Source of the DNA: Naegleria gruberi
Taxonomy: Eukaryota
Length of the DNA: 64,000 nt
Assembly (NCBI GenBank): GCA_000004985.1
Contig: GG738890.1
Strand: one strand, 5' to 3'
Shown here: piece by piece, positions 42,268 to 59,274 of the stretch
Numbering within the stretch: the first letter of the stretch is position 1
Layout: each line of letters begins with the position of its first letter
Made by a program: the position numbers and the translations under genes
Notes under the pieces: model-generated
Databases searched by the model: none
What the model saw: only the letters and a program-made list of their open reading frames with translations
What the model was told of the DNA's origin: nothing

Positions 42268-44142
42268 CTATCTTTCACAATAATCGGGGTCTATCACTTC
42301 CTCCAGGAGTTGTTGATTTGAATATTTGATATGGTAGAGTCTGCATTGATTATATTCTCGTTGTTGTAGAGCTTTCTTTGAAATGACATAGTTTAGCATG
42401 CTTTTACCATCAAGATGAACCAAGAGTAGAATGTCATTCTCTTTTGAACATCCTTTTTCTAATAGGGGTTTTGTAATTGGGCACCCAATGAAAGCATTAT
42501 CACTACTTATATTGTCAGAAAGAATGGTAAATAGATTTTTCTCATCAGGTAAATATTCAACAATATGGTTGATTCTATTTGGGAAATCAAAAGAAAAACA
42601 ACAAGTTTCAATCATCTTTGGAGTTATTTCAAATTTCGACGTCGGCATTTCTTCATAGTACTCAACCAAACATTCAGTGTAATCATAATTTGAGTAAAAA
42701 GCAATTCCACCTGTTGATGGGAACAAATAGGAGGTCAATAACCCTGAAAGTGTTCTACAGTCAATGAAACATGATAGTGTATAGCCCTCCTTTTCGTCTA
42801 ATTTGAAAATTCTGTGAAAAATTCGGTAGGAAAATGTTGAAAAGGTGTTGTAAATCAAGCAGAAGTGAAAAGTCTCTTTCATGATAGGTTTGGCAAGATC
42901 TGCAACTTCTTTAAACTCAAGCGAGTACGGCTTATTTAGAATAAAATTAGCTATTTTCAAATAGTGATAGAATCTAATCTTGAAAATATCAAACCAATTA
43001 GTTTCCTTTCGAACTATCTTGTGTCCGTATGCAGAGAAGAAATATGAATCGTTAGCTAGAATTTCATTAGCTATCATCGAATATTGATGAAACAGTGGGT
43101 TATTTTTGAGTGTGTAATAAGTCAGATATTTCCAAATTGAAGGATTTTTGACTATCAAGTAGTTCCAATATTTACAAACGAGCCTCATTCTTAGAATTGT
43201 CTCTAAAGTGTCAAAATGCTTCACCAACTCTTCATGAAGTTCAAAAGGAATGCTTCTCATTAAAAACCATTCGGGATCCAATTTTCTTTTCTTTGTACTT
43301 GACTCCAATTGCTCTTCTTCCTGTTGGGATGGTTCATTACTTTCCACAGATTGCAAATTAATTGATGGCATTAAGCCATCAATAGAAAATTCAGACAAAT
43401 CAGATAAATCCAAGCAAAGTGGAGAAAAATAGCCAATGCAGCGAAAGTGAAACGTTCCCACAAGTTCAGGATCGGTATGAATCGCAGCCGTCATACATTC
43501 CAACGTACATATACTATTGTTAACTGCATTCAATGTAAGTTCTATAATTTCAGCATTTAAATATTCAAAAATTCGATAAATATGTCTTGATAAAGTAAGC
43601 ATGTTCATTGAATTGTCGGTAATTTGAAAAAACGTTTCCAAGTAATCATGTAATTTGCCAATTTTCTCACTTAGATATATCCTTTCTCTCAATACTGCAT
43701 TCTTGGCATAAACTGACAACTCTCCTAATAAAAACCTGTCAACAGTCTCAAATAATGCATCCATCAAATTAGAATTCTTAGTTTTCAAATCTCTAGCCAA
43801 TAGTGATTCATTCTCCTTAGCACCTTCCACCATTCTCACATATCTATTCTCCATTTCCATCATTCTCTTTACTCCATAATCATACATTATTTCACCATAT
43901 TTTTCTTCATCCTTCAATACTAGGAATGGTTTTAAATTTAACAAGACAAGTATCATAGCCTGATGAGTATACAATGAAAGACGATCCATTATGATCGGAT
44001 CAAAATACAAAACACCACCACGATTGGACGATACTTGTTCAATGATGGTTTCAATACTTATGAAGGATCGGGTGAGATCGACAGATAGAAATTCACTAGG
44101 GAATGAACTAGTGGGAAGGAGTGATCTTTCTCGTTCTTTCAT
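42268..44142 (-). CDS. Hypothetical protein with an F-box-like motif
   Basis: LMRSIPFELHEELVKHFDTLETILRMRLVCKYWNYLIV is F-box-like. First ATG at 44142; the track start is a TTG. Confidence 0.45.
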   Translation of the reverse strand: MKERERSLLPTSSFPSEFLSVDLTRSFISIETIIEQVSSNRGGVLYFDPIIMDRLSLYTHQAMILVLLNLKPFLVLKDEEKYGEIMYDYGVKRMMEMENRYVRMVEGAKENESLLARDLKTKNSNLMDALFETVDRFLLGELSVYAKNAVLRERIYLSEKIGKLHDYLETFFQITDNSMNMLTLSRHIYRIFEYLNAEIIELTLNAVNNSICTLECMTAAIHTDPELVGTFHFRCIGYFSPLCLDLSDLSEFSIDGLMPSINLQSVESNEPSQQEEEQLESSTKKRKLDPEWFLMRSIPFELHEELVKHFDTLETILRMRLVCKYWNYLIVKNPSIWKYLTYYTLKNNPLFHQYSMIANEILANDSYFFSAYGHKIVRKETNWFDIFKIRFYHYLKIANFILNKPYSLEFKEVADLAKPIMKETFHFCLIYNTFSTFSYRIFHRIFKLDEKEGYTLSCFIDCRTLSGLLTSYLFPSTGGIAFYSNYDYTECLVEYYEEMPTSKFEITPKMIETCCFSFDFPNRINHIVEYLPDEKNLFTILSDNISSDNAFIGCPITKPLLEKGCSKENDILLLVHLDGKSMLNYVISKKALQQREYNQCRLYHIKYSNQQLLEEVIDPDYCER

Positions 44143-44241
44143 TTTTTTCCTATTTATTGTGTAAATCAATTCCGAAATTATTTAAATATATTAATATTCT
44201 AATATTTATTATTTACAATAAAACAAATTATTCAAAACAAA

Positions 44242-44937
44242 TTATTGTCTGAATATCACAGATTCTTCGGTGAATCTATCAATGACAGCCAAACTTTCCA
44301 ATTTCACACCTTGTTCTCTCAATTTCTTTCCTCCCTCTTGGAAACCCTTCTCAATTGAAATACCAACACCAACAATGGAAGCTCCTGCCTGATGAATGAT
44401 ATCAATTAGTCCTTGTGTGGCCTGTCCACAAGCAAGGAAATCATCAATAATCAAAACCTTATCATTTGATTGTAAATATTTGGCAGAGACACAAACATCG
44501 TATTCAACATTCTTTGTAAAGGAATGCACTTTGGTGGCATAGATTTGTTCTGTGAGGGTTGATGGTTTGACTTTTCTTGCATAAACGAGAGGAACGTTGA
44601 GGTAGAGAGCTGCCATTAATGCAATTGGAATTCCAGAAGTTTCCAATGTCAAAACTTTAGTGACACCATCAAGAATGAAACGAGAGGCAATGTCCATTCC
44701 CATTAATCTTGACAATTCTGGATCAATTTGATGATTGAGGAATGAATCGACCTTCAAAATATTTGTTCCTTTAATTACACGACCATGTTGAAGAATCATT
44801 TGTTTGAGAGTTGATTCACCACATCCTTTTGACTTGATGAGTGAGTCTACTAAATTCATTGAATTATCAGTAGTAGTAGTTGATGCAGTATGGAAGTGAT
44901 TAGCACAATGATTAGTATTAGAGAAGGAGAGCATCAT
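44242..44937 (-). CDS. xpt: Xanthine phosphoribosyltransferase of the bacterial Xpt type
   Basis: [28 protein letters not shown] and [43 protein letters not shown] are near-colinear with Bacillus Xpt ([28 protein letters not shown]…[42 protein letters not shown]). Single exon. The ATG follows a T/A-rich leader. Confidence 0.85.
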   Translation of the reverse strand: [231 protein letters not shown]

Positions 44938-45296: not shown

Positions 45297-47998
45297 TTAT
45301 TGCTCTGAAACTGTGGTATTTCTTCGAGATCTTCTTTTCATTTGAATGTATTTCTCAATTTTCATTTGTTTTTGGAAAGCTAATGTTTTCTTGAATCTTC
45401 TGTGTGTATCAACGAGTAGCTCTGCAATTTCTCTTTCAAGTGTATCAAACAAAGTATCTGGTAAAAAGTCAACCTCACCAGTTAAAAATCCATCAACCAT
45501 TTCCTTAATTTCCTGAACATTGGCCTTGTTAGTATTAATAGTATGGTAACCATGCATATCTAAAAATTTTTTGTAAATTTCAAAGGCCTTTTCATATTTT
45601 TTCTGCTCCACAGTGTCAATATCCTTATCACTCAACCATCCAAATTTTTTGAGTACCTTAGCTCCTTGTAAAAATGTACCAGCCTTTTCTGTCACTTGTT
45701 TGAATTGCTTTTGTTTCTTGGATTTTGTAATAGAACTTGTTGTTGTGGAGGCAATACTACTAGAGGCTGATCCTATTTCTAAATCAGCTCCATACATTGC
45801 ATCTTGAGCTTCAATAGCTTTAATACATAAATCCTTATATATGGAAACTTCTTGTAAGAATAAGAAATTTTCCAAAGCCATTTCCTTTTCACAGTGAGCT
45901 CTGAATAAATCTCTCAATCGATCATCTGCCATAGTATCCAATAATACGATAGCATTTGCCTTCTTCCACCTTTTTCTATGGAGAGCATCCTTGTTAAGAG
46001 ACAATGTAAATGAAAGTATTAGGGCTGGAATTACAATTATCAAAGAGAGCACTCCTAATATTAGGTTCATACTCGTTGACACATAACTAATTTTATCATG
46101 TGTTGAAAACAAAGATAGAGAATATTCTCTAAGAATGCTGATAGAATCTGATACGTTTCTACTTCCTCCACAGTCCTCAAAGTCTTGTATTTGGTCAATC
46201 TTTTTAAAATTATTAAATAGTGTTGAGGGAAATAAAAACTTACAGCCGAGTCTGTTTGGTCATAATACATTTTGTTAACAATTTCTGTAAACGTCCACAA
46301 AATCTGTTTTGTAGGTGTTTCTATCAAGGATTTATAATCAGCTAAAGAGTACTGAGTAAACAAGTATGGTTTGTTTTCGTACTCATACTGCAAAGAATCA
46401 GATAAATTCCATAGAAAATTCCACGCCTGAGTCCTTAATGACATGTATGACTGATACCTTTTTGTTGAAAATCCTAAATATACTATTTGATGAGTTAAAA
46501 TATGCATATCACTAAGAACTGCTTTCAAGTCTGATGCTTGAGCATTAAGTCTTGCTTCTGTTTCCGATGTCCTATATATAAAGCTTAAAGTAACACAAAT
46601 TAATAATGAAACGAGAAGAATGATAGTTGCACTCAATCCAATTATGGAAAATAATTTCCAACAAGAGAGCTCAATCGTACCCCAAGGTGTATGTAGCTGT
46701 TTGGGTTTTTTGATATTGGTATCGTTTTCTTTTTCCATATCAAAGAGAATAGACCTGCTCACTGCCTTCAATTTTGATGTGTATTGTGGATTTTGTAGTG
46801 GTTGATTTGGAAAAGGATTTACAGTAAGATAATTGTTTGGTTTCAAGGTTGGAATAGGTTGAGGATTTGTTAAAGAGGAATGATTTGCAATGGTATCCCT
46901 CTCTGCCCTATTCATTTCAACAAAAGTTTCATCAAGATTATTCAGTATTGTTGGAGTAGAGTCGTGTGTCTCTAGTTTGGGTATTTCTCTTGGTGAGCTT
47001 TTAGGTGACTGATTGAGTCTTGAGGGATTAAGATTTGGAAGAGATTTCATCTTTTCAACTCTAGGAGACTCCTTAGGTTTTTTAGAAAGGCTTTGTGTTG
47101 TTACATCAGGTTGTTGTATTGGAATGGCAATGTCTACCGATTGCACAGTATTAGTTACTTGATTGATATTTGATTGGTTATTGTCATTAGAAAGTGAAGA
47201 GAGAGGTAATTGTGGAATTGCAGCATGATTGTTTACAATGGTTGAAGTTTGTTGTTTTGGAGGAATTACAAGTGTTGGCAAATTAATTGACAATTTGAAA
47301 GATGGAATATTACTTGGGGTGTGTTTTTGATGTTGTTGAGAAATTTCCTTAGACCGTTCTGATGTCTCCATTCCTGTTTGTATCAATGTTGTGGATGCTG
47401 ATGGTATTTCAAGTTGTAAATCCTTATTTGTTACAATCTCATTAGTTTCAATTACTTTAACTCTTCCCACATTATTACTTGGAGTTGGATCGAGTTGAAT
47501 GATAATTGGAGTGGCTGGCATCTTTCTTGATGAAAGAGAAGCAATTAAAGACCTAGTTGAAGTAGCAGCTGCCATTACCAATGACCCAATAATTGATGGT
47601 CTTCTGTTCGATGTTTCTGGTTTAATAGTATCTGTTTGATTCGAAGCTGTTGTATCGGTATCAATATTAATTTGAATAAGACTAACATTATCACTTTCTT
47701 TTGGTGCTTCAATGACAATTTCTGGTATTTCAAATTCAATGTTTGTTTTCTTAGTCTTGGCTTTAGGTCCTTCCTTCTTTTTAATAGGAGAAGCAACTCC
47801 CAACAGTAAAGAATTATTAGTAGTAGAAGATATTGCCGAGGGTGATAGTGGTTTTTTGAAACCACTTGTTCTGCTTGTATTCGATGAAGATGAATTCCTT
47901 GGAGAGGAAAATAAGTTACCACTGGGCGAAGCAGGAGGACTTCCCATTGTAGAGGGTTTCCTTTTGCTAGAAGTGTTGATGTTGTTTGGTTCCGGCAT
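45297..47998 (-). CDS. Two-exon gene (47998..46244 and 46199..45297; 44-nt intron 46243..46200, GTAAGT…AAAAAG, switching between the two overlapping track ORFs). It encodes a membrane-anchored RGS protein with a long S/T/P-rich N-terminal region, TM1, a 150-aa loop, TM2 and an RGS domain
   Basis: Splicing joins …YYDQTDSA|IDQIQDFEDCGG… in frame. TM1 is LFSIIGLSATIILLVSLLICVTLSFIY and TM2 is LILGVLSLIIVIPALILSFTLSL. The RGS motif is MADDRLRDLFRAHCEKEMALENFLFLQEVSIYKD. Confidence 0.65.
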
Positions 47999-48673
47999 TG
48001 GAATAATAATATATTCAAGAATAAGAATTAATAAGAATTATTTTCTTGTTATTATTATTATAATTAATAGTATAATTGGTTGATGATGGATGGAAAAAGA
48101 GTCAATAAGAACAATAGACGTTTTTGTTTCTAATATTCATCAAACCGTTATCCTTAAAACCTTCAGTACATTATGACTTCATAGAACATCATTGCTTGTC
48201 AGAGATAAATGGCTTCGGCCTTCAATCATTATGTTTTAGACGGAACCCACTAGAAAAAGTTAATTGATTAGGATGGCATGGTGTAATTAAATTTTTTAAT
48301 ATTAAAAATAAAAATATTATTTTATTTTTGATTTGTTGTGTAACCGTTACATTATTTGGATCAGCCAACAAATTATCTTTAAATTAAGGATGTTAAAATT
48401 CTTGAGATAACCAATAACTTCCCAAAATCAAAAAATAAGTCCTCAACAAAATTTGATTTACCTCAATAACCTTAAAAAATGGCTCGAAAACACAAGAAGA
48501 AACAACAATCCAATAAGAGAAAAAACAACGTAAGCCTCCAAATGAAACTGTTCTGAAAGTAGCACCAAGACCCTATCGACACTTTCAACCAAGTAATATT
48601 TCCAATAATTAAAAACAAACCAATTTCATTATTTTCAGATTACTTAGCAGAGAGAAAGGCATCCGAATCCAAA

Positions 48674-49234
48674 GTGATTGTCATACTGGATCAAACAAAA
48701 TCCGATGTAAGAATACAGAAAATCTTTACACATCTTTCAAGAGAGAAGGTAGCCAATACAAATTACAAACACTTTCTTTTGAATTTACTAATGCAGGATT
48801 CTTATGGTTGGAATATCGAATGGGAACTAGTTCCAAGAGAGTATCTAGCAGACAAATACTTTATCAAAAAGGTTGTTTCGTTTGGTGCATCGAGTATTAA
48901 ACAAATATTCTGCAAAATACTTAACCATATTCCAAGTAAATTTTGGGAAGATCAGAAATTCATCATTCAATTGTTGACAATTAGTGAAGGACATTGCTTT
49001 TGTTACTTTCCAAAACATGTGCAGAATACTCATAAATTTGCTGAAATGGCAATTCGTTTTCGAACAGCAAATATGGAAGAAACACCTTGTAAAAATAATG
49101 AAGAATTTGTTAGAGAGATGGTAAAACAAAATATCAAAACACTCCCTTACATTGGTAAGAAGTTATTGTTTGATCAGCAGTTTATGGTTTCTCTCATGTT
49201 GGAATTGAATATTAAGAATCCAGATTTTTTTTAA
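48674..49234 (+). CDS. Hypothetical protein. The start is not resolved: the track start is a GTG and the first internal ATG is 40 codons in
   Basis: ORF only. The upstream mini-ORF ATG 48480 … GTAAGC could be a 5' exon, but the phases do not match. Confidence 0.3.
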   Translation: MIVILDQTKSDVRIQKIFTHLSREKVANTNYKHFLLNLLMQDSYGWNIEWELVPREYLADKYFIKKVVSFGASSIKQIFCKILNHIPSKFWEDQKFIIQLLTISEGHCFCYFPKHVQNTHKFAEMAIRFRTANMEETPCKNNEEFVREMVKQNIKTLPYIGKKLLFDQQFMVSLMLELNIKNPDFF

Positions 49235-49569
49235 TAGGAATTCGTAATGTTCTGAGCTATTAAGTGCACAATCTTAATAAACACTGTGCTTCCACTATGT
49301 GAAACTGTCGTTTGGGTGAAACACTTGACAAGCACAAGTTCACTGACGGCGATTTTTTTGTACCAAATTGTTCTTCTATCATACTTCTATCCAATCTTTA
49401 AATTTTTCTTTATTATAAACTATACGAAACTTTACAACATGAAAAACCACCAACACCAATATTGCAATTAAATTCATGAACCTCACCTATTGTCTCTCTT
49501 CAGCTCAGTTTTTTTCAACACCCATTTTTGTCTCTTCAGCCGTCACTGAATTTTCTCTATCATCAAAAA

Positions 49570-52500
49570 ATGTCAACAATCAAACTAAAGGCCAGAAGCT
49601 CTGTCATTAGAGGTGGAGGACGGAAAGCCTCTGTGATTAGTAAGAATGATGATCTCGATCCATCAGAAATTAAATCTACAGCCCTCTCCAAAGCCAATGA
49701 CGATGATGGTTATGATGATGATGGATATGAAGACCAAGCTTCTTCCAATACAACAACGACAACTACAACATCAGCAGCAGTAGTAGAACAGCCTTCATCT
49801 TCTTCATCTACAACAACAACAACAACAGCTGAAGAGTATGGTGATGATGATGGTTATGAAGACCAAGAATCAAAACCAACTTTATCTGAATCAACAACAA
49901 CAACAACAACAAGCTCATCATCATCTATTGGTGCTGCTACTTCTACAACTGAAGAAGGTGGTGCTGAAAAGGAAGGGAAAAAGAAAAAGAAAGACAAAGG
50001 AGAGAAGGAGGAAAGTGGTGTTTCTGGTGGTGACTCTGAAGAGGAAATCAACAAATTGAAGAGACACTACAAAAAGAAGAGGAAAGAATGTGAGGAATTA
50101 AAAGCCAGAGTTGATGAATTAGAAAAGACTATTGAACAATTGAATAGTACACCTTCTTCTTCTGTTGTTGTTGCACAAGAACCAAGTGTTGTGGAGAAGA
50201 TTGTCGAGAAGGAGGTTGAAAAGATTGTTGAGAGGATTGTGGAGGTTGAGAAGATTGTCGAGAAGGAGGTAATTGTTGAAAAGATGGTAGAGAATACTGA
50301 AAAGGTTGATGCATTGACAAAACAAGTTGAAGAGATCAAACAGGCAGAAGAGAAGGAAAAGTTACTGAGAGAGGAAAAGGAACGTTTGTTGAGCGATTTG
50401 AATCAACAACTCGAAACTGCAAAATCAAGTTTATCACAATTAGAAGAACAGATCAAGAGTGTTCAATCTGAAAAATCACAAATCGAACAAGTGAAAGCAG
50501 AAATTGAGAAGAATCTCACTGAGGAGAAGAATAGATTGAGTGAGGAAAAGGACTCACAAGTGAAATCTCTGAACGAGAAATTAGATTCTGCAAAACAAGC
50601 TCTCGAGGAAAAGAATGCAGAATTACAAAAGGAAAAAGAGTCTCAATCACTTCAGGCAGGTGCTTTAGAACAAGGTTTGAGAAGTGAAATTGAAAAACTC
50701 AAATCAGATATCGAAAATTCTAACAAGACTGCTCAAGAAACTGAAACTAAATTGAAAAGTGAGATTGATCAACTCAAGAATCAAGTCGAGACAGAGAGGA
50801 AAAATACATCAGACGTCACTTCAAATAAGGAACAAGCTGAAAGGGATCTGAGTGAAAAGATTAGCCACCTCGAAAAACAATTGAGTAACACAAATGAAAC
50901 TCTTGAAACATCCCTCAAAAAAGAGAGAGAATTCCTGCAAGAAGTTTCAGCAAACTTGGAGAAGGAGAAAGCATCGTCACAATCCAAGATTAAAGAATTG
51001 GAAGAATCTGTCTCCAAGTTGCAATCAACACTCGATGAATCTAACAATACTGTTGTACAAAAGAAATCAGAAATTTTAACACTCGAAAGTGAGAAACAAT
51101 TGGCTGTGCAACAAAACGAAAATCTCAAGAAGCAAATTGAAGAAAAGGAAAGAGAAATTTCCGAAATTATCAATAACAAAACTGGTGAATCTAATGATGA
51201 GCTGAAGAAACAATACGAAAAAATCAATGAACTTCAAAGGAAGGTTCATGATTTGGAAGAGTCATTGATGAAGGTACAAAAGGAAAGAGATCTAGTGAAT
51301 CAACAGAAGAATTCAGTAGAAGAACAATTAACCTCATCCAAGGATGAATTGCAAACTTTGAAGAAACAAATTGCTGAAGAGGGTAAAAATCTAGAACAAG
51401 CAAAATCGCAATCATCTCAACAAGAGGGTAAACTCAAGGAATTAACCAAAAATTTGGAAGAATCTCAATCCGAAATTAAAAAACTCAAGGAAGAAATCAA
51501 AAAACTCGAAGAAAACTCAAAATCTTCCTCACAACAAGGTGAAGGTAAACTCAAAGACCTTTCAAAGAACTTGGATGATGCACAAAAGGAAATTAAGAAA
51601 TTGAAGGACGAACTTACCAAATCCGAAGAAACATCTAAATCCCAACTTCAAAAGGAAGAAACCAAATCCAAAGAACTCAATTCTAACCTTCAAACTGCTC
51701 AAAAGGAAATTGAAACTTTGAAGCAAAATATCAAAAAACTCGAAGAGCAATCTAAATCATCGGGCTCCCAACAAGAATCTAAACTAAAGGATGTTACAAA
51801 ACAACTCGAAGAATCACAAACAGCCATTGAAAAGTTGAAGCAAGACATCAAGAAACTTGAAGAAAATAACAAGTCTGTCAACACATCATCCAGTCAAAAG
51901 GTTACAGATCTCGAAAAGGAAGTATCATCACTGAAGGATGAACGTGACAATCTGAAGAAGAAGGTTTCTGAACTTGAACAAAAGGACAAGGAAATCGCCT
52001 CTTTGAATGAAAAAGTTAAGAGCGTCGAGAAGAAATACAACAATGAAGTTGAACAAAAGAGAAATCTCAATAATCAAATCAAAACTCTCAAGACTGAGAA
52101 TGAAACATCATCTGAGCAAGTTTCCAAACTCAACAGAGAACTCATGGACAAGGATCAAACCATTTCACAACTCCAACAACAAGTTGCCTCTGCAAATTCT
52201 CTCCAAAATGAAATCAAACAACTCAGAGATGAAAAGAAGCAACTCAGATCCGAACTCAAGACCAAAACTGAGGAAGCCAAGAGTTTATCAAAGAGATTAC
52301 ACCAAACAATCACCAATATGCAAAATGGTGGTACTGTTGTTGATATACCAAAGGAACCAAAAGCCAAGACATCTGTCCTGTTAAATTCCAACCTTAACGA
52401 TAAGCAAAGAATGTTCCTCGATCCAATTGGAAGTGTGAAGAGATCAGTATTGGCAATTATTGAATATTTTGATGAAAATGTTGAATCAGTTCAAGGAGAT

Positions 52501-53163
52501 TTGGAGAAGATTGGAGATTCTTCCAATTCAAAGGATCTTAGAAGAATCTTGAATGAAAGATTGTGTGAATCTATCGTTCTAGTCTTCTCACACTCCTTCT
52601 CCCCACCATTTTGGTTCTTCTCTACCCCTACTGTGTGGCATTTTGTTGAGGAAATTAATGAACAACTCTCCAAAACACCTGGACTCTCCACTTCAATCAT
52701 CATGGCTACAAAGCAACTTTCCACCATTGTTGTCAGAGTAAATTCAACAGTGAAAAATCTAATTGATAATGAAGTTAAGGAAAAGGGAGCTCCTCCAAAG
52801 GGCAAACACCATTTTGATCTTCCTTTTGATGAATTTGAATTTAGATTCCGTGCCTTGATTTTAGAATGCCTCAATTCAAAATGTTTAGATGTAATAATAA
52901 GTCTCCTCTTCACTCAGCCAAAGATTCTCGAAAGATACTACAAAGAAGAGGCCTTTATAAGAAAAGCAGATTGTCAACAAAAAATTGTAACATGTATCAA
53001 ATGGCTCAGCAAACTTCCATTCACAATTCCTCTCAACACACCAGCAATTACTGACATTGAGGATGAAGATGATGACGACTTGGATATGCCACTCACTAAT
53101 GGAAATTCTGACCACACCAATTCTGACGAACCAGCAACTGTTTCAAATGTTGAAGAATATTAA
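49570..53163 (+). CDS. Large coiled-coil protein (about 1200 aa) with an acidic/T-rich N-terminus, about 800 aa of heptad-repeat coiled coil and a C-terminal globular domain
   Basis: The ATG at 49570 follows an A-run. Continuous E/K/Q/L heptads run from about 50100 to 52350. The C-terminal 250 aa are non-repetitive (…RILNERLCESIVLVFSHSF…WHFVEEINEQL…). Confidence 0.6.
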   Translation: MSTIKLKARSSVIRGGGRKASVISKNDDLDPSEIKSTALSKANDDDGYDDDGYEDQASSNTTTTTTTSAAVVEQPSSSSSTTTTTTAEEYGDDDGYEDQESKPTLSESTTTTTTSSSSSIGAATSTTEEGGAEKEGKKKKKDKGEKEESGVSGGDSEEEINKLKRHYKKKRKECEELKARVDELEKTIEQLNSTPSSSVVVAQEPSVVEKIVEKEVEKIVERIVEVEKIVEKEVIVEKMVENTEKVDALTKQVEEIKQAEEKEKLLREEKERLLSDLNQQLETAKSSLSQLEEQIKSVQSEKSQIEQVKAEIEKNLTEEKNRLSEEKDSQVKSLNEKLDSAKQALEEKNAELQKEKESQSLQAGALEQGLRSEIEKLKSDIENSNKTAQETETKLKSEIDQLKNQVETERKNTSDVTSNKEQAERDLSEKISHLEKQLSNTNETLETSLKKEREFLQEVSANLEKEKASSQSKIKELEESVSKLQSTLDESNNTVVQKKSEILTLESEKQLAVQQNENLKKQIEEKEREISEIINNKTGESNDELKKQYEKINELQRKVHDLEESLMKVQKERDLVNQQKNSVEEQLTSSKDELQTLKKQIAEEGKNLEQAKSQSSQQEGKLKELTKNLEESQSEIKKLKEEIKKLEENSKSSSQQGEGKLKDLSKNLDDAQKEIKKLKDELTKSEETSKSQLQKEETKSKELNSNLQTAQKEIETLKQNIKKLEEQSKSSGSQQESKLKDVTKQLEESQTAIEKLKQDIKKLEENNKSVNTSSSQKVTDLEKEVSSLKDERDNLKKKVSELEQKDKEIASLNEKVKSVEKKYNNEVEQKRNLNNQIKTLKTENETSSEQVSKLNRELMDKDQTISQLQQQVASANSLQNEIKQLRDEKKQLRSELKTKTEEAKSLSKRLHQTITNMQNGGTVVDIPKEPKAKTSVLLNSNLNDKQRMFLDPIGSVKRSVLAIIEYFDENVESVQGDLEKIGDSSNSKDLRRILNERLCESIVLVFSHSFSPPFWFFSTPTVWHFVEEINEQLSKTPGLSTSIIMATKQLSTIVVRVNSTVKNLIDNEVKEKGAPPKGKHHFDLPFDEFEFRFRALILECLNSKCLDVIISLLFTQPKILERYYKEEAFIRKADCQQKIVTCIKWLSKLPFTIPLNTPAITDIEDEDDDDLDMPLTNGNSDHTNSDEPATVSNVEEY

Positions 53164-53268
53164 ATAATAACAACTAATACAAACTGAAAATAAAATTCGT
53201 ATCTCACTAATTTATTTGTGTACAGGCAATTTGTTAATTGGGCAAAATTGTTGTTCTCTTAAAATCGA

Positions 53269-55095
53269 TTAGAGAACAAAGTTCAAAATTGTAAAGAAAA
53301 CAAAGGCAACCATAGCATAATTGACGGTAGCAATTGAGCCATTATTTGTCTTCTTGGTTGTGGAGGCGACATAGTCGAAAACACGGTAAGTAAGGGATTG
53401 AATACTGTCTTTGACAGCCAAAGCACTTCTGATATTATTTCTACTTGAGTAGGAACTTTCAATAGTGAGGAAACATCTTCTGTCAGTATCATCTCTGATA
53501 GCCAATGGGAATCCAAAGTCGAATCCATAAGTGGTGTTAGCAGAGAAAAGCAAATCAGCATCGACACCTCCAGCTCTAACAGCTTGTCCAGAAACGAAAA
53601 TATTATCAGAGGTAGCATCTGTTCTGGAAGCATTTCTACAATCAGGATTTGATGGAATGGTTGCAAAGTTGGAGTAACAACACAAAATAACATTGTAAGG
53701 AATAATGCTTTGAGTAGCAAGTGAAGGAGCCAATGGAGATTCAACACGAATGTAAATGGTATCAGTTGGACCGAATTGAGTACGAACTTGAGTAAAGGCA
53801 CTATTTGCATAAGATAAGGCACTCGTACTAAATACCAATTCTTCCTCAATTGCAGGATATGGCACCAAATATTGGAGAGTGTAGGCAATACTGTATGTAT
53901 TTCCACCATTTGTTCTAAATGATAGAGAATAGTCGCCACCAAAGTTAGTTTCTGCAGTAATAACATTAGATTGCATGACAATTTGGTAGTACATGAAACC
54001 ACCAGAGAGACCAGTGAAAACAGCATCAGTAACAGTGAAAGCATAAGGTCCAGTAACAAACCAAGAGGTTGCATTTTGAGTGATGGTTGTCCATACTTCC
54101 AATCTAATTTCCAAACGATTCAAATCGTTAACAAAGATTCTCTTTGGTTTGAGGAAGGTATTTGGAGAGGATTGATCAAAGTTAATACGAGTAACTGCAA
54201 GAGTAATAGTCAAAATATAACGTTGTGTGAAAATTGTTTCGTAACAATTCTTTTGACTAGAACCTCCAGAAACAATATTGGTTTGAATCATGTAATCAGC
54301 AAACATAACAGCAACCAAGTCAACCACACCACCATTTGAAACCCATTGTACGTTTGGATTAGAAGTAAATTGATTCAAAGTCAAAACTTGTTGATAGACA
54401 TTGTACCAAGCAGTTGATGTAACGAGTACAAATCCATCTCTAATTAAATCATTGGACAAACAAGTATATTGCTTTGACAAACCAATATTGAAGAATACAC
54501 CTGTGGTTGAGTTATCACTGAATACACCTCCTGTCTTGAACATGGTAATTCTCAAAGTAACATTCAAAGTAGAAGGATTGACAGATGCTTCAAAAACTGG
54601 ACGAGGAGCACCAATGACATTTCTACTAAATGCAGTAAAGGTAATAGTTGCAGTTGATGCAGCACTAGTTACACCAAGAACAGGATCAAAAGCATTGAGA
54701 GTATAAGATGGAACAGCTAAATTACCAGGATGGATAAATCTCACATTACCCAAATTAATTTGATCTTGAGAAAATTGAGTTACTGGAGTGTATTGGTTTG
54801 TTCCAACTCTAACTTGAAATTGGCCGTTAGTAATAGAAAGCACATTGTAAACAATTCTGGCTGGTGAAGGTGATCCATTGAGTGTTGATGCTAATTCATT
54901 GCTTGTAATGGTAACATTATCACCATTGAACAAAGTTAGTCTATTGACAGTGATCACTAAACTTTGAGAGTATGCAAAGGAATGCAAAAGGAGAACTGAT
55001 AGCAATAAAGTCACAAGTGTTATTACTCTTGTTTTCATTCTTGATTTTTTTGATGATTTCGGTTGACTGTTGGTGAAGCAAAGCTTAAATACCAT
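53269..55095 (-). CDS. Secreted or GPI-anchored cell-surface protein of about 590 aa, family unknown
   Basis: An N-terminal signal peptide (MKTRVITLVTLLLSVLLLHSFAYSQS) follows a possible upstream ATG. The protein is Thr/Ser/Asn-rich with many N-glycosylation sequons. The hydrophobic C-terminus VNYAMVAFVFFTILNFVL is GPI-signal-like. Confidence 0.5.
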   Translation of the reverse strand: MVFKLCFTNSQPKSSKKSRMKTRVITLVTLLLSVLLLHSFAYSQSLVITVNRLTLFNGDNVTITSNELASTLNGSPSPARIVYNVLSITNGQFQVRVGTNQYTPVTQFSQDQINLGNVRFIHPGNLAVPSYTLNAFDPVLGVTSAASTATITFTAFSRNVIGAPRPVFEASVNPSTLNVTLRITMFKTGGVFSDNSTTGVFFNIGLSKQYTCLSNDLIRDGFVLVTSTAWYNVYQQVLTLNQFTSNPNVQWVSNGGVVDLVAVMFADYMIQTNIVSGGSSQKNCYETIFTQRYILTITLAVTRINFDQSSPNTFLKPKRIFVNDLNRLEIRLEVWTTITQNATSWFVTGPYAFTVTDAVFTGLSGGFMYYQIVMQSNVITAETNFGGDYSLSFRTNGGNTYSIAYTLQYLVPYPAIEEELVFSTSALSYANSAFTQVRTQFGPTDTIYIRVESPLAPSLATQSIIPYNVILCCYSNFATIPSNPDCRNASRTDATSDNIFVSGQAVRAGGVDADLLFSANTTYGFDFGFPLAIRDDTDRRCFLTIESSYSSRNNIRSALAVKDSIQSLTYRVFDYVASTTKKTNNGSIATVNYAMVAFVFFTILNFVL

Positions 55096-56162
55096 TTTGC
55101 CTGGAGCATATTACTATTTTCATCAAGGTCAGGTTTGGGAGATCTATATTATGGTGAATTGACCTTGAGAACGATTCTTTCCATTATTGTAAAATGTTAA
55201 TTTTTTGGTAATTTCCAAAAATGTATAAAATAGATATTTAGTTCAACTCTATTGTAATGAGGTAATAATATTCGTTCTAATTTCAATCTGATTGAATTAA
55301 ATGTTTTTGTAATCGATCCGTATGGTTTTCTCCAATACGTCTTAATAGGATTCATAAATTTCACGTATTATTAAATAATAAATAACTTCCTACAACCATC
55401 AATACATACAATCATCTATCGACTTGGATATGAACAATAAATAGCTGGTATCTTCAAAGTATTGTTTTAGGTGAGCGATTATTATTCTATATGTCCAGCT
55501 ATCAAGTACTTGGAAATGGTGATGATATAATTAATTAGTAACTAATAATCATCATCCGAAATACACCATCTCTAATACGGAGAGATTTCAATTCATTTTT
55601 TTTATTTTTTTTAGTTAATGAAAATTATTAATCTTTTTATTGAAGCTCTTTAAACTGGATAAAAAAGGCGGGAAAGTCATATCTTCTCTCCCTTAAAGTA
55701 AATTGACCAAAATAAGAAATATCAAAAGGAGAGAATTAATTTACCATCACTCTAATCCAATAATTTTCCAAAGAAAATGAATCTATCACATTACTTTACC
55801 AACTCAACCAAGGATCGACAAATTCCTTCAGTCAACCCCAAACAAACAAAGAAGAAATCAAAGAAAGCTAAGAAATCTAATGCTGTCCCTGTGAAAGTTG
55901 AACATCAACAAGCACCAGTATTAATTCCACAACCCCATCATATAACTGAGTCAGTGATGATTTCTTCCACTCATCCAATTAATATGACTGGTGGTTATGG
56001 AATTCAAGATGTTATGATTCACAAACATATGAATAATTTGTATACTTATAATAATAATTCTGAGTTTTAAATTATTTTGTATATTTCAAAATAAAGTATA
56101 AAATTATTTCAGAAGTGTGTAAAGTGCAAAGTTGTAGAGAAAAAAAGTTGTAAAGGTGATGA

Positions 56163-57557
56163 TTATATACTTGTCTGGTTTTGAATATGAACATCTTCCA
56201 GGTCGATCATCTTGCCATTTCCTCTGGATTCTAAATAGTGGATGTGAGTTTCTGCTAATGTTTCGGTTAAATCATTTGCTAATTGTTGGAAAAGAGTTGG
56301 AGGGAGAAGATCAATTTCTTCAAATACATCTTCTCTATTATTGTAATTATCAATGATTCCTGAATCCACACTTGAAATTTCATAAGTATCCATTATTTCA
56401 ATTACAGTTTCGTATTTCAATCTTTCTAAATAACTAATTGCTTTTTCAATTTCATTATATGCTTTGGTAATTGATGTTTCATTTGGTCCAACCTCTTGCT
56501 TATCAAACAATTGATGTGCTATTTCGAATAGTTTCATCTGCATGTTCAAAGATTCATTGGAATAATCCTTGTAAAACTGAATTTTTTCCAAAAGTAGGAA
56601 TTCATTCAATAAATTACTATTTTGACATGAAAATTTGAATTTCATTCTAGAAAAATCATCACTCATAGTGTCCTTCATCAGAGAATTATTGGCATTGTGA
56701 AAATGAATCTTATTTCGTTTCTCATTTCGAATAGCAAAAACAAAGAGCAGAATTATTGTTGGAATTAACACGACAACACTCAAACAAATCAATGAAATGG
56801 ATACAATCAACGAATCCTTTCTCAAATAATCTGCTCTAGTTGAGATTAAACTTGCCGAATCCAAAAAATCAAACAACAACGCTTGAAATTCATTGAAATC
56901 TGTTGCATATCCAGGAGAATACAATTCATCTCTTGCTTCCTGTTGGAGAGTTTCGTTAAGATAAACATAAAGTGTTCCATTCACCGTAATAAATGAACAG
57001 GTTTTTTCAATCATGTGATCCCAATGTTTTTCAAATATTGGAAAGGTTTCTAATTTCCTTTCCAAAAATGGATGAGTGTATCCAACAGGAAACAGTTTGG
57101 CCATTTCAGCTATTGAACTATTCAAATAATTTCTATAGGGCAGATAATAGTAATAACCAGTTTGAATCGAATAGCCACCTCGATTTTCAATAGCCAACCG
57201 AATTAAATCTCTCAACACAACATAAACAGCATACAAATCAGTTCTCTTCCCCATCAAGTCAACCGAAGGAATTTCCTGAGCAAACTGATTAGGAATTGTA
57301 ATTAAACATATAATTGCAATTAAGATTGCAAAACTGAACAAAATAACCAAAATATTGCAAAAAGTAATAAAATTTTGACCTTTCTGTTCTCTGATTCGTT
57401 TCTTCTTCTTGTCGTCGTGAGAATTTGGTGCAGTTTCAATGTGTTTGATTGTGATGGATGGTTTGAAATCATTGTCATCATCATCTGCCTGCGCACTCAA
57501 GATATCATCGAGACCGAAAGTATCAGTGTTGTTGGGAGAGGTCAAGTCACTTTCCAT
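56163..57557 (-). CDS. Membrane-anchored RGS protein: short N-terminus, TM1, about 165-aa loop, TM2, RGS domain
   Basis: TM1 is FITFCNILVILFSFAILIAIICLITI and TM2 is LIVSISLICLSVVVLIPTIILLFVFAI. The RGS motif is MSDDFSRMKFKFSCQNSNLLNEFLLLEKIQFYKDY. Confidence 0.6.
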   Translation of the reverse strand: MESDLTSPNNTDTFGLDDILSAQADDDDNDFKPSITIKHIETAPNSHDDKKKKRIREQKGQNFITFCNILVILFSFAILIAIICLITIPNQFAQEIPSVDLMGKRTDLYAVYVVLRDLIRLAIENRGGYSIQTGYYYYLPYRNYLNSSIAEMAKLFPVGYTHPFLERKLETFPIFEKHWDHMIEKTCSFITVNGTLYVYLNETLQQEARDELYSPGYATDFNEFQALLFDFLDSASLISTRADYLRKDSLIVSISLICLSVVVLIPTIILLFVFAIRNEKRNKIHFHNANNSLMKDTMSDDFSRMKFKFSCQNSNLLNEFLLLEKIQFYKDYSNESLNMQMKLFEIAHQLFDKQEVGPNETSITKAYNEIEKAISYLERLKYETVIEIMDTYEISSVDSGIIDNYNNREDVFEEIDLLPPTLFQQLANDLTETLAETHIHYLESRGNGKMIDLEDVHIQNQTSI

Positions 57558-57894
57558 TTTTTTTCAAAGATTGCGCAGGTCAGAGAGACCGAAACTTGGC
57601 GATTCTCATATCTGTTCAGATTCCAACAATGGAAGGCAATAAATTGAAGAAATTTACAATAGGTTTGTTGACAAGTTTCTGCATCATTGTATCCAGCTAT
57701 TGGAAACCAATTGCCTAAATTCAATAAATCTTCTGTACTAAAGGATCCATCAAATTGTCAATTGACTACAAATTTGGGAGATATCTAAACGAAAGGTATT
57801 TCATAATGCCGAATAAAAAGGGCACAAGATAACAATAACACCTACAAAAAAAATCAAACAAGTTCCTGGTTGACCACTCACTCAAAATCACATC

Positions 57895-59274
57895 ATGGAC
57901 ATTGTCTCGCAATACAAGCAGAAAACTACTGCTTCCATCAAATCGAAAAAGACACAAACATTATCTCAATATTCGAAACGTTCATTTATGCATGTCGAAT
58001 GTTGTGGAAAGATGGTCTTTAATTGTACAAGAATAATGTCTGTTCTTGCACTGATACTATTAATTATTGCATTTATTGTTGTAATTATTTACTCAATTAT
58101 GACGTATGCAGTTGTCAAGTGGCCTTTATCGACGGCTCTTATTGAAATTGGAAATTGTTATCATTATTACAATGAAATGATAATGACAGAGTATATTACA
58201 GTGTTTTCAATGAATGGAACTTATGCGAAAGAATACGAAACTGCAAAGAACTCACTCATTACTTCTCTCAATGTTGTCTTCTCTATTATTTCAAGTGCCA
58301 AGTTGACCAATTTGACCAATGCCAACGATATTCCAATATTCAAATTACAACAAGGTGTAGTCGATGCAATAGTTGCGAAAGATTATACCACTGCCAATGA
58401 ACTATTCAATCAACCAGAACATTTAGAAGGGATGGACACATTCCTGAGCTCATATGTTAATTTTTTGCAAGATATTAAGAATATTAGTGCAAATCAGGAT
58501 CAGACGATTCAAAGTTCAACCTCCACACAGATTATTGTGATTGCTGTTTGTCTTGCATTGACCTTACCGATTGTGTTATTCATTATTATCACATCAATCA
58601 GATCTCAACAGCTGTCCGCAAGAAAACTCAAAAATACTAGATCAATAATGGTGCTCAAAACCATGACAGATCCAGTTTTGAGATCTCTTTTCAATGAATT
58701 CTGCGTTGGTGAGACTGAACATCATTGTTTTGAATTTTTGGAAAGTGTTCAACTATTTAAGGAAAAGAAGGGAACCTATCAATCGACCATTCGTCAAATC
58801 ATGAAACAAGTTAAGGAGGGAAATTTCATAGATGATGATACCAGCTCTTCAGATACCAATACAGCAGTCACCACACGAACAGATTCCACAGAATTTGGTT
58901 CTATAGTTTCACTCAATGATCAGGAGCAAGCACTTCAAATCTATGAGCGATTCTTAGCTCCAAACAGTTCCAAACGAATCCATTTCAAAGGTTATTCGGG
59001 AATTCTATCTGTAATTCAATCAAAAGAATTAGCTGCTGATTTACAACATGTATTTGTGGATGCTCAGAAATTTGCAAGTGAACATCTCATTCCAGCTCAC
59101 AATTCCTTCTTGGGGAGTTTCACCAACATTACCTCTCATAAAATTGAAATGATGAATGAATTTAGAAAGAAATGGTTACATTTCAAATCCACTGAAACTT
59201 CCAAAAAGAGAAAAGATCCAACCAAATTCCAGCAACAATCTTCTGGTCAAACTGATTCAAAATTGATTCAATAA
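57895..59274 (+). CDS. Membrane-anchored RGS protein, a paralog of 56163-57557 and divergently transcribed from a shared 337-bp intergenic region
   Basis: TM1 is IMSVLALILLIIAFIVVIIYSIM and TM2 is IIVIAVCLALTLPIVLFIIITSI. The RGS motif is MTDPVLRSLFNEFCVGETEHHCFEFLESVQLFKEKKG. The loop motif ITVFSMNGTYAKEYE parallels ITVNGTLYVYLNE in the neighbour. Confidence 0.6.
   Translation: MDIVSQYKQKTTASIKSKKTQTLSQYSKRSFMHVECCGKMVFNCTRIMSVLALILLIIAFIVVIIYSIMTYAVVKWPLSTALIEIGNCYHYYNEMIMTEYITVFSMNGTYAKEYETAKNSLITSLNVVFSIISSAKLTNLTNANDIPIFKLQQGVVDAIVAKDYTTANELFNQPEHLEGMDTFLSSYVNFLQDIKNISANQDQTIQSSTSTQIIVIAVCLALTLPIVLFIIITSIRSQQLSARKLKNTRSIMVLKTMTDPVLRSLFNEFCVGETEHHCFEFLESVQLFKEKKGTYQSTIRQIMKQVKEGNFIDDDTSSSDTNTAVTTRTDSTEFGSIVSLNDQEQALQIYERFLAPNSSKRIHFKGYSGILSVIQSKELAADLQHVFVDAQKFASEHLIPAHNSFLGSFTNITSHKIEMMNEFRKKWLHFKSTETSKKRKDPTKFQQQSSGQTDSKLIQ

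What the first reader, a model, noticed from the sequence alone, without database searches (positions are those of the whole stretch)
45297..59274. Family of three membrane-anchored RGS proteins with a sensor-like TM-loop-TM topology
Three genes (47998-45297, 57557-56163 and 57895-59274) share one architecture. Each has a cytoplasmic N-terminus, TM1, a 150-165 aa extracytoplasmic loop with conserved patches and N-glycosylation sequons (for example ITVNGTLYVYLNE and ITVFSMNGTYAKEYE), TM2, and a cytoplasmic RGS (GAP) domain. Two of them are head-to-head and share a 337-bp promoter region. Canonical RGS proteins are soluble, and the known membrane-integral ones (plant RGS1) are 7TM. A two-TM loop coupled directly to an RGS domain looks like a bacterial-style periplasmic sensor fused to a G-alpha GAP. 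That would be a receptor-like regulator of heterotrimeric G-protein signalling that does not appear to be a characterised family.
Basis: partly seen in the sequence, partly recalled or inferred. Interest (0 to 1): 0.7.

Follow-up and report, generated by a model that had tools for sequence, protein, structure and literature searches.

The report
Two-pass membrane RGS receptor-like family
Three neighbouring Naegleria gruberi genes belong to an undescribed, amoeba-specific family in which an outward-facing four-helix bundle, shaped like a bacterial chemoreceptor sensor, is joined through the membrane to a G-protein regulator (RGS) domain; only one of the three still looks able to switch G proteins off.

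Summary
The window is Naegleria gruberi. All three genes encode N-terminus – TM1 – 147-168 aa loop – TM2 – RGS-type domain. They are homologous members of a family of 84 sequence clusters. Every named member comes from Naegleria or Willaertia (Heterolobosea). I found no paper that describes the family.

Additions and corrections:
- **Topology.** Loop-out topology is supported by charge bias and by 1.8-fold enrichment of glycosylation sequons in the loops.
- **Connector.** The TM2-to-RGS connector has exactly the same length in 79 of 82 members, which suggests mechanical coupling rather than a passive anchor.
- **RGS quality.** Only gene 1 keeps the Gα-contact residues (E87, N88, N128, D163, R167 in RGS4 numbering). 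Genes 2 and 3 have lost them, and gene 2 fails Pfam RGS.
- **Gene pairing.** Genes 2 and 3 represent two subfamilies that lie next to each other in five loci, head-to-head in four. This suggests co-expression and perhaps a heterodimer.

Verdict: a new variant of receptor-type RGS proteins. The function is inferred, not shown.

The parts
45297..47998 (-). Gene 1 (subfamily A, canonical RGS). It is the annotated N. gruberi protein P0006 (868 aa, start at 47947). The first in-frame ATG at 47998 would give a product of about 881-885 aa, depending on the intron chosen.
   Evidence: ORFs. Intron enumeration. Comparison with the N. fowleri orthologue P0004 (about 43% identity). P0006 sequence. tblastn of P0006 on the window.
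46200..46243 (-). Short intron of gene 1 (GTAAGT...AG, 44 bp, as used by the annotated model). An alternative is 46184-46239 (56 bp).
   Evidence: Which of the two introns is real is not settled without RNA data.
46589..46645 (-). Gene 1 TM1
   Evidence: Hydropathy peak 2.67
46065..46588 (-). Gene 1 extracytoplasmic loop (about 160 aa; the span includes the intron)
46008..46064 (-). Gene 1 TM2, carrying the family-conserved proline
   Evidence: Hydropathy peak 2.88. The proline is conserved in 82 of 84 members.
45369..45938 (-). Gene 1 RGS domain, split by a low-complexity insert. It retains E87, N88, N128, D163 and R167 (RGS4 numbering).
   Evidence: Pfam RGS 34.3 bits. Contact-residue table, anchored on the RGS10 alignment.
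56163..57557 (-). Gene 2 (subfamily B), 464 aa. It is the annotated N. gruberi protein P0005.
   Evidence: Subfamily clustering.
57297..57353 (-). Gene 2 TM1
   Evidence: Hydropathy peak 3.22
56793..57296 (-). Gene 2 loop (168 aa), predicted helical with a beta-hairpin at residues 187-200
   Evidence: AF2 model (loop pLDDT about 58-79)..
56736..56792 (-). Gene 2 TM2
   Evidence: Hydropathy peak 3.09
56220..56672 (-). Gene 2 degenerate RGS-like domain. There is no Pfam hit. The contact positions read N, E, gap, E, H.
57558..57894 (.). 337-bp intergenic region between the head-to-head genes 2 and 3, presumed to be a bidirectional promoter
   Evidence: Coordinates. The equivalent head-to-head B-C arrangement is seen in loci L002, L003 and L004. 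The DNA is not conserved with the paralogous pair.
57895..59274 (+). Gene 3 (subfamily C), 459 aa. It is the annotated N. gruberi protein P0001.
58033..58089 (+). Gene 3 TM1
   Evidence: Hydropathy peak 3.52
58090..58530 (+). Gene 3 loop (147 aa), predicted as a four-helix bundle continuous with TM1 and TM2
58531..58587 (+). Gene 3 TM2
   Evidence: Hydropathy peak 3.23
58657..59124 (+). Gene 3 degenerate RGS-like domain. Pfam score is 24.7 bits against a cut-off of 23.9. The contact positions read H, C, gap, P, S.

Best explanation
The three genes belong to a heterolobosean family of type-II-like, two-pass membrane proteins. The family is found in Naegleria and Willaertia.

**Architecture.** A variable cytoplasmic N-terminus, often ending in a CCG/CxG motif, leads into TM1. 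TM1 continues into an N-glycosylated extracytoplasmic four-helix bundle. The last helix of the bundle runs on through TM2, which carries a conserved proline. A connector of invariant length then leads into a cytoplasmic RGS domain.

**Proposed mechanism (inferred, not shown).** The bundle binds an external cue, probably as a dimer like bacterial four-helix-bundle sensors. Displacement of the TM2 helix changes how the RGS domain is presented to membrane-bound Gα. The protein would then act as a receptor-GAP that sets the off-rate of Naegleria's Gα subunits, some of which are self-activating. This parallels the proposed role of 7TM-RGS proteins.

**Gene 1.** It keeps all canonical Gα-contact residues and is the likely active GAP.

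**Genes 2 and 3.** They belong to two divergent subfamilies (B and C) that have lost those residues, yet they conserve the ectodomain at least as well as the cytoplasmic domain. They are kept as adjacent genes, usually head-to-head. They are probably co-expressed and may form a B-C heterodimer with a non-catalytic, RGS-homology-type output: Gα binding without GAP activity, or some other partner.
For: **Shown by tool results.**
- Homology and family size: 84 representatives, 78 with E <= 1e-10, most covering the TM1-loop-TM2-RGS profile end to end.
- Named members come only from N. gruberi, N. fowleri, N. lovaniensis and Willaertia magna.
- 48 of 84 members pass Pfam RGS at E <= 1e-3, and no other Pfam family is found.
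- A family profile hits RGS10 in the PDB (E 3.8e-4) with the SxEN, VN and DxxxR motifs aligned.
- 67 full-length members have exactly two TM peaks; the median loop is 152 aa.
- K+R counts in 15-aa flanks are 1.69 before TM1 and 3.93 after TM2, against 0.93 and 1.03 at the two loop edges.
- N-X-S/T sequons run at 2.5 per 100 aa in loops (observed/expected 1.8) against 1.2 per 100 aa in cytoplasmic parts (observed/expected 1.0).
- The gene 3 loop is modelled at pLDDT 83-90 over most of residues 81-190 as helices continuous with TM1 and TM2.
- The spacing from the TM2 proline to the Thr of the DTM motif is 31 residues in 79 of 82 members; Thr to Cys is 14 residues in 78 of 82.
- Contact residues are retained in gene 1 and in roughly half of the family (40-43 of 84 per position), and lost in genes 2 and 3.
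- Identity by region: gene 1 against its N. fowleri orthologue is 27% in the loop and 63% in the cytoplasmic part. Gene 3 against P0003 is 52% and 34%. Gene 2 against P0007 is 42% and 37%.
- B and C genes are adjacent in five loci, head-to-head in four.

**From the literature (PMC9283941).**
- N. fowleri has 13 Gα subunits, including self-activating ones.
- Isolated RGS domains of its 7TM-RGS proteins act as GAPs on them.
Against: - No experiment or expression data supports any step of the mechanism.
- Topology rests on hydropathy, charge bias and sequon enrichment. No dedicated topology predictor was available.
- No Foldseek hit reached E <= 1e-3.
- No sequence homology to any sensor family was found.
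- The AF2 alignment held only 6 sequences, and the cytoplasmic domains are modelled at low to moderate confidence.
- The loop of gene 1 evolves fast (27% identity to the orthologue). That fits either a diversifying ligand site or a weakly constrained spacer.
- In N. fowleri the B-C pair is tail-to-tail, so a shared promoter is not universal.
Confidence: 0.55

Rival explanations
1. Passive membrane anchor. The two TM segments and the glycosylated helical loop only tether and orient a constitutively active RGS domain at a particular membrane (plasma membrane, ER or contractile vacuole). No ligand is sensed. This would resemble how the N-terminal TM hairpin anchors the SNX13/14/25 RGS-PX proteins.
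For: - No ligand-binding motif or homology to any sensor family was found.
- The four-helix-bundle similarity is generic.
- The loop of gene 1 is poorly conserved between species, at 27% identity.
- The weak fold matches for gene 2's cytoplasmic domain are to the SNX25 and SNX13 RGS domains.
Against: - A tether does not need an invariant 31-residue connector kept across 79 of 82 paralogues.
- A tether does not need a folded ectodomain of about 150 aa kept in every member.
- In subfamilies B and C the loop is conserved at least as well as the cytoplasmic domain.
- No PXA or PX domains are present.
Confidence: 0.25
2. Genes 2 and 3 are decaying or neofunctionalised paralogues whose RGS-like domain no longer deals with Gα at all. 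It would be a pseudo-RGS scaffold for other partners, or the proteins would work mainly through their ectodomains, for example in adhesion or as a surface coat. Only gene 1 would remain in G-protein signalling.
For: - N88, N128, D163 and R167 are lost in both genes and in their closest relatives.
- Gene 2 fails Pfam RGS and finds no RGS protein in the PDB by sequence.
- The cytoplasmic domains of genes 2 and 3 are 34-37% identical to their nearest homologues, against 42-52% for the loops.
Against: - Both genes have intact ORFs.
- The TM2-RGS spacing and the DTM...F...C...FLE motifs remain conserved in subfamilies B and C.
- The B-C gene pair has been maintained and duplicated as a unit. This argues for selection on a joint signalling function, not decay.
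- From my own knowledge, RGS-homology domains without GAP residues (GRKs, RhoGEFs) can still bind Gα.
Confidence: 0.15
3. Inverted or different topology. The loop is cytoplasmic, or one hydrophobic segment is not membrane-spanning, so the sensor analogy is false.
For: No dedicated topology predictor and no experiment was available. The hydropathy analysis is crude.
Against: - Both peaks are strong, at 2.7-3.5 on a 19-residue Kyte-Doolittle window.
- The positive-inside bias and the loop-specific sequon enrichment both point to a loop outside and the RGS domain inside.
- An RGS domain must be cytoplasmic to meet Gα.
- AF2 models both segments as long helices flanking the bundle.
Confidence: 0.05

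Closest known systems
Seven-transmembrane RGS proteins (Arabidopsis AtRGS1; N. fowleri 7TM RGS1-4; Trichomonas 7TM-RGS)
   Same: An integral membrane, receptor-like N-terminal module is fused to a C-terminal cytoplasmic RGS domain. They occur in the same organisms, which have self-activating Gα subunits. They are proposed to work as receptor-GAPs (PMC9283941).
   Different: The proteins here have two TM helices, not seven. The extracellular module is a four-helix bundle inserted between the two TMs, not a GPCR-like bundle or an N-terminal EGF, lectin or GPS ectodomain. No GAP activity has been measured for any member.
Bacterial four-helix-bundle periplasmic sensors of chemoreceptors and histidine kinases (Tar/Tsr, PcaY, MCP2201, Vc1313, HK9, QseE, NarQ; Pfam 4HB_MCP_1 and TarH)
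   Different: There is no significant sequence match. The best is one Willaertia member at 14.4 bits against a cut-off of 27, and nothing real appears in the PDB by profile search. The output is a eukaryotic RGS domain, with no HAMP, kinase or MCP signalling domain. The loop is N-glycosylation-rich. The similarity may be convergent.
RGS-PX sorting nexins SNX13, SNX14 and SNX25
   Same: They are membrane-anchored RGS-domain proteins, described with two N-terminal TM helices (my own knowledge). Some have non-canonical RGS domains. The SNX25 and SNX13 RGS structures are among the weak fold matches for gene 2.
   Different: They carry PXA, PX and PXC domains, which are absent here. Their TM hairpin is described with only a short loop and no folded ectodomain (my own knowledge). 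They were not retrieved by the family profile.
Canonical soluble R4/RZ-type RGS proteins (RGS4, RGS10)
   Same: The family consensus and gene 1 share the S-x-E-N, V-N and D-x-x-x-R contact motifs.
   Different: The domain here is membrane-integral, is split by low-complexity inserts, and scores weakly against Pfam RGS (24.7-34.3 bits). In genes 2 and 3 the contact residues are replaced.

Membership tests
RGS domain (Pfam PF00615) | HMM score at or above the curated gathering cut-off (23.9 bits) | tested here: inconclusive
   Gene 1 scores 34.3 bits (met). Gene 3 scores 24.7 bits (marginally met). Gene 2 has no hit at E <= 1 (not met). Gene 2 is linked only through the family profile (hhalign probability 95.6%). 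Across the family, 48 of 84 members hit at E <= 1e-3.
RGS domain (Pfam PF00615) | All-helical RGS-box fold | tested here: inconclusive
Catalytically competent (GAP) RGS domains | Gα switch-contact residues equivalent to RGS4 E87, N88, N128, D163 and R167 | tested here: inconclusive
   Met for gene 1 (E, N, N, D, R). Not met for gene 2 (N, E, gap, E, H) or gene 3 (H, C, gap, P, S). The columns are anchored on the RGS10 alignment; the RGS4 numbering is from my own knowledge.
Catalytically competent (GAP) RGS domains | Acceleration of Gα GTP hydrolysis, and binding selective for the GDP-AlF4 state | not testable with these tools
   This needs recombinant protein assays like those in PMC9283941.
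7TM-RGS proteins (AtRGS1 type) | Seven transmembrane helices N-terminal to the RGS domain | tested here: not met
   There are exactly two hydrophobic peaks in all three genes and in 67 full-length relatives.
Bacterial 4HB_MCP_1 / TarH-type sensor domains | Significant match to the family HMM or to solved members by sequence | tested here: not met
   No Pfam hit was found for the loops of genes 1-3. One Willaertia loop scores 14.4 bits against a cut-off of 27. The loop profile searched against PDB sequences gives only a PPR-repeat artefact.
Bacterial 4HB_MCP_1 / TarH-type sensor domains | Antiparallel four-helix bundle between two TM helices, with the first and last helices continuous with TM1 and TM2 | tested here: met
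Bacterial 4HB_MCP_1 / TarH-type sensor domains | Homodimeric ligand binding that displaces TM2 | not testable with these tools
   No multimer prediction or ligand assay was available. The invariant connector length is only indirect support.
RGS-PX sorting nexins (SNX13/14/25) | PXA, PX and PXC domains flanking the RGS domain | tested here: not met
   RGS is the only Pfam family found in any of the 84 members.

The most novel reading that the evidence does not exclude
Heterolobosean amoebae use a chemoreceptor-like, two-pass four-helix-bundle receptor to control heterotrimeric G proteins directly, in parallel with GPCRs and 7TM-RGS proteins. Ligand-driven movement of TM2 is passed through a fixed-length helix to an RGS domain. 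Subfamilies B and C (genes 2 and 3), kept as adjacent and usually divergently transcribed genes, form an obligate heterodimeric receptor. Its degenerate RGS-homology domains would act as ligand-gated Gα-binding or effector modules rather than as GAPs.
Probability: 0.25. Interest if true: 0.8.

Novelty: new variant of a known kind. Interest (0 to 1): 0.6.

Why it matters
**The open question.** How are self-activating Gα subunits regulated in lineages with few GPCRs? The only model so far is the 7TM-RGS receptor-GAP. This family would be a second, structurally unrelated way to put an RGS domain under extracellular control. It uses the TM1–four-helix bundle–TM2 design that bacteria use for chemoreceptors and sensor kinases.

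**Scale.** The family is large, with at least 14 genes in N. gruberi and 84 sequence clusters overall.

**Medical angle.** It is present in the pathogen N. fowleri, where G-protein pathways are being considered as drug targets (PMC9283941).

**Testability.** The invariant TM2-RGS connector and the conserved B-C gene pairs give concrete hypotheses about transmembrane coupling and heterodimerisation.

Tried and rejected
**Gene 1 structure.**
- A frameshift or pseudogene reading was rejected. A short intron restores the frame, an annotated model exists, and the N. fowleri orthologue aligns across the junction.

**Searches for wider homology.**
- The three word-based homologue searches found almost nothing, 1-3 hits each. 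The exhaustive profile search was needed to see the family.
- Single-sequence searches of the gene 1 and gene 2 cytoplasmic domains against the PDB found no RGS proteins. A four-sequence profile gave only sub-threshold RGS hits. The 84-sequence profile reached RGS10 at E 3.8e-4.
- Sequence homology of the loop to known sensors was tested in two ways and not found. Pfam on seven loops gave nothing significant. A 44-loop profile against PDB sequences gave only a PPR/TPR-like artefact from a 'G-x-x-x-x-A' helix-turn-helix motif.

**Jobs that could not run.**
- Four of the nine contig look-ups found no record.

**Other negatives.**
- The promoter DNA of the gene 2/gene 3 pair is not conserved with that of the paralogous P0007-like/P0003 pair.
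- No further family members lie in the window.
- The neighbouring genes are functionally unrelated.

Full report
**Source and gene structures**

- The window is Naegleria gruberi. Gene 3 (57895-59274, +) and gene 2 (56163-57557, -) are 100% identical to annotated 'predicted proteins' of that species.
- Gene 1 (47998-45297, -) appears as two ORFs in different frames. I listed every GT...AG combination that restores one frame and scored the products against the N. fowleri orthologue P0004, which is about 43% identical.
- A short intron starting at 46243 or 46239 is clearly the answer. The annotated N. gruberi model P0006 (868 aa) uses the GTAAGT...AG 44-bp intron 46243-46200 and starts at 47947. 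A 56-bp alternative, 46239-46184, fits the orthologue slightly better (425 against 407-417 bits).
- Gene 1 is therefore intact and not a pseudogene.

**Checking the observation**

- Kyte-Doolittle scans give exactly two strong peaks in each protein, 2.7-3.5 on a 19-residue window. By the peak positions the loops are 160, 168 and 147 aa for genes 1, 2 and 3.
- Genes 2 and 3 are head-to-head, 337 bp apart.
- Pfam RGS passes its cut-off of 23.9 bits for gene 1 (34.3 bits) and only just for gene 3 (24.7 bits). It finds nothing in gene 2, and gene 2's C-terminal domain finds no RGS protein in the PDB.
- A profile of the cytoplasmic domains of gene 1, P0004, gene 3 and P0003 matches gene 2 with hhalign probability 95.6% and E 1.2e-8. 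The alignment shows the shared DTM-x-D...F...C...F-x-x-LE...YK and EIY..FL...LP..LF...H..F motifs.
- Genes 2 and 3 also match directly, BLASTP E 2e-7.
- The architecture is therefore real and the three genes are homologous.
The gene 2 peptide lies in a beta-hairpin that AlphaFold predicts only in that protein.

**The family**

- Word-based searches found only 1-3 relatives per gene.
- An exhaustive HMMER search used a profile running from TM1 to the first part of the RGS domain. It found 84 cluster representatives among 1.84 billion proteins, 78 of them at E <= 1e-10 and most matching end to end.
- I looked up 30 of them. Every named one comes from N. gruberi, N. fowleri, N. lovaniensis or Willaertia magna. 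The rest are unnamed metagenome or read-assembly contigs. At least 14 are N. gruberi genes.
- Databases call them 'predicted protein' or 'RGS domain-containing protein'.
- 48 of 84 hit Pfam RGS at E <= 1e-3, and no other Pfam family occurs.
- Four literature searches found no description of a two-TM RGS family. [quoted passage not shown]

**Topology**

- 67 full-length members have exactly two TM peaks, and the median loop is 152 aa with a range of 133-211.
- K+R counts in 15-residue flanks average 1.69 before TM1 and 3.93 after TM2. At the two loop edges they average 0.93 and 1.03. This is the positive-inside pattern for N-in/C-in.
- N-X-S/T sequons occur at 2.5 per 100 aa in loops, 1.8 times the number expected from composition. 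In the cytoplasmic parts they occur at 1.2 per 100 aa, 1.0 times expectation.
- This selective enrichment is independent support for a lumenal or extracellular loop.
- No dedicated topology predictor was available, so this is good indirect evidence rather than proof.

**The loop fold**

- AlphaFold2 with a six-sequence alignment models gene 3 at an overall pLDDT of only 64.6, but most of loop residues 81-190 reach 83-90 (one 10-residue block falls to 64). TM1 is part of a helix spanning 28-105. Three to four further helices follow. The last helix, 174-258, runs through TM2 into the cytoplasm.
- PcaY, Tsr, McpN, TorS, NarQ and Tar follow lower down.
- Foldseek gave no hit at E <= 1e-3.
- No sequence homology to sensor families was detectable, either with Pfam on seven loops or with a 44-loop profile against PDB sequences.
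- The defensible claim is that the loop has the fold and membrane topology of a bacterial four-helix-bundle sensor. Membership of that family is not shown.
- The gene 2 loop is modelled less confidently, as helices plus a hairpin.

**A fixed connector**

- TM2 contains a proline conserved in 82 of 84 members.
- From that proline to the threonine of the DTM motif at the start of the RGS domain there are exactly 31 residues in 79 of 82 sequences. From that threonine to the conserved cysteine there are 14 residues in 78 of 82.
- By contrast, the N-terminus preceding the matched region runs from essentially none to more than 660 residues, and loops range from 133 to 211.
- AlphaFold models the connector as one continuous helix in both genes.
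- An invariant helical connector is what one expects if TM2 movements must reach the output domain. A passive tether would not need it.

**Quality of the RGS domains**

- The 84-sequence profile hits RGS10 structures (E 3.8e-4). The family motifs s-l-E-N, s-V-N-i and l-D-t-H-x-R-F align to RGS10's S-E-E-N, Q-V-N-V and Y-D-S-Y-S-R-F. These correspond to RGS4 S85, E87, N88, N128, D163 and R167; the numbering is from my own knowledge.
- Reading those columns across the family gives the following.
  - Roughly half of the members keep them (40-43 of 84 per position).
  - Gene 1 and its N. fowleri orthologue have E, N, N, D, R.
  - Gene 2 has N, E, gap, E, H.
  - Gene 3 has H, C, gap, P, S.
  - The nearest relatives of genes 2 and 3 are equally degenerate.
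- Gene 1 therefore looks like a competent GAP. Genes 2 and 3 look like RGS-homology domains that have lost the canonical catalytic interface.
- Regional conservation agrees. Gene 1 against its orthologue is 63% identical in the cytoplasmic part and 27% in the loop. Gene 3 against P0003 is 34% and 52%. Gene 2 against P0007 is 37% and 42%.

**Conserved B-C gene pairs**

All-against-all clustering separates three groups: a large canonical subfamily A (43 representatives, including gene 1), a gene 2-type subfamily B and a gene 3-type subfamily C. B and C genes turn out to be neighbours repeatedly:

| Locus | Source | Pair | Arrangement |
|---|---|---|---|
| Window | N. gruberi | gene 2 / gene 3 | head-to-head, 337 bp apart |
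| L003 | ENA metagenome contig, very close to N. gruberi | P0007-like (97% to P0007) / P0003 | head-to-head, about 340-360 bp apart |
| L002 | ENA contig | P0065 / P0058 | head-to-head |
| L004 | JGI contig | a C-type gene / P0063 | head-to-head, 250 bp apart |
| L001 | N. fowleri | P0030 / P0033 | adjacent but tail-to-tail, 296 bp apart |

- P0007 and P0003 are the closest homologues of genes 2 and 3, at about 39-40% identity. The pair therefore seems to have been duplicated as a unit.
- The intergenic DNA of the two pairs is not conserved.
- This linkage suggests co-regulation. Since bacterial four-helix-bundle sensors are dimers, it may also mean a B-C heterodimer. That last step is inference.

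**Mechanism and rivals**

- The best-supported reading is a receptor-type RGS. An extracytoplasmic four-helix bundle is coupled through TM2 and a fixed helix to an RGS domain acting on membrane-bound Gα.
- Naegleria has many Gα subunits, including self-activating ones, and their GTPase is accelerated by the RGS domains of 7TM-RGS proteins (PMC9283941). A lineage-specific Gα expansion in N. gruberi is also reported.
- What is shown: architecture, family membership, fold prediction, residue conservation and gene linkage.
- What is inferred: ligand sensing, dimerisation, conformational coupling and GAP activity.
- The main rival is a passive anchor (confidence 0.25). The invariant connector and the conserved folded ectodomain weaken it.
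- A second rival is that genes 2 and 3 have left G-protein signalling altogether (0.15). The evidence does not exclude this.
- An inverted topology is unlikely (0.05).

**Novelty and score**

- Receptor-RGS fusions are known as 7TM-RGS proteins, and membrane-anchored RGS proteins exist (SNX13/14/25).
- A TM1–four-helix bundle–TM2–RGS design, a fixed connector, and paired degenerate subfamilies are not described in the literature I could search.
- I rate it a new variant of a known kind, with interest 0.6.
- The family members are already visible in databases as uncharacterised RGS-domain proteins, and every functional step remains untested.

Noticed in passing
P0019 (Willaertia magna KAL9656166.1, 1302 aa), not in the window: One family member continues after its RGS domain into a second two-TM module with a loop of about 320 aa. 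It ends in a C-terminal region that looks to my eye like a degenerate nucleotide-cyclase domain, but Pfam finds no cyclase. It is either a real RGS-cyclase fusion or a merged gene model.
   Followed up: partly
Just upstream of TM1 in all three genes, e.g. window about 58006-58014 (gene 3 'CCG') and about 46676-46681 (gene 1 'WG'); family-wide: A conserved T-C-C-G-x-x-E-L motif (CCG or CxG in many members; the glycine is invariant in the five-sequence alignment) sits on the cytoplasmic side just before TM1. Juxtamembrane cysteines are candidate palmitoylation sites. This was not tested.
   Followed up: partly
window 47947-46646 (gene 1, N-terminal region of about 434 aa): A long, low-complexity, S/T/N/P-rich cytoplasmic N-terminus precedes TM1 of gene 1. 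It is only about 34% identical to the N. fowleri orthologue. In other family members the region before the profile match ranges from almost nothing to more than 660 aa.
   Followed up: no
window 53269-55095 (-): A 608-aa ORF has an N-terminal hydrophobic stretch, a C-terminal hydrophobic tail and a Cadherin-like (PF16184) match, E 1.1e-8. It is likely a surface protein, lying between gene 1 and the gene 2/gene 3 pair.
   Followed up: partly
window 49528-53163 (+): A 1211-aa ORF has a very long coiled-coil region and a C-terminal RUN domain, E 3.6e-12.
   Followed up: partly
window 42268-44169 (-), 44242-44937 (-), 48674-49234 (+), 61452-63134 (-): The neighbouring ORFs match F-box, phosphoribosyltransferase, DUF4116 and cytochrome P450 families. 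None has an obvious link to G-protein signalling.
   Followed up: partly
window 46067-46259 (-): Both reading frames stay open for about 190 bp around the gene 1 intron. This is why the junction first looked like a frameshift. The exact acceptor (46200, 46184 or 46176) cannot be fixed without transcript data.
   Followed up: partly
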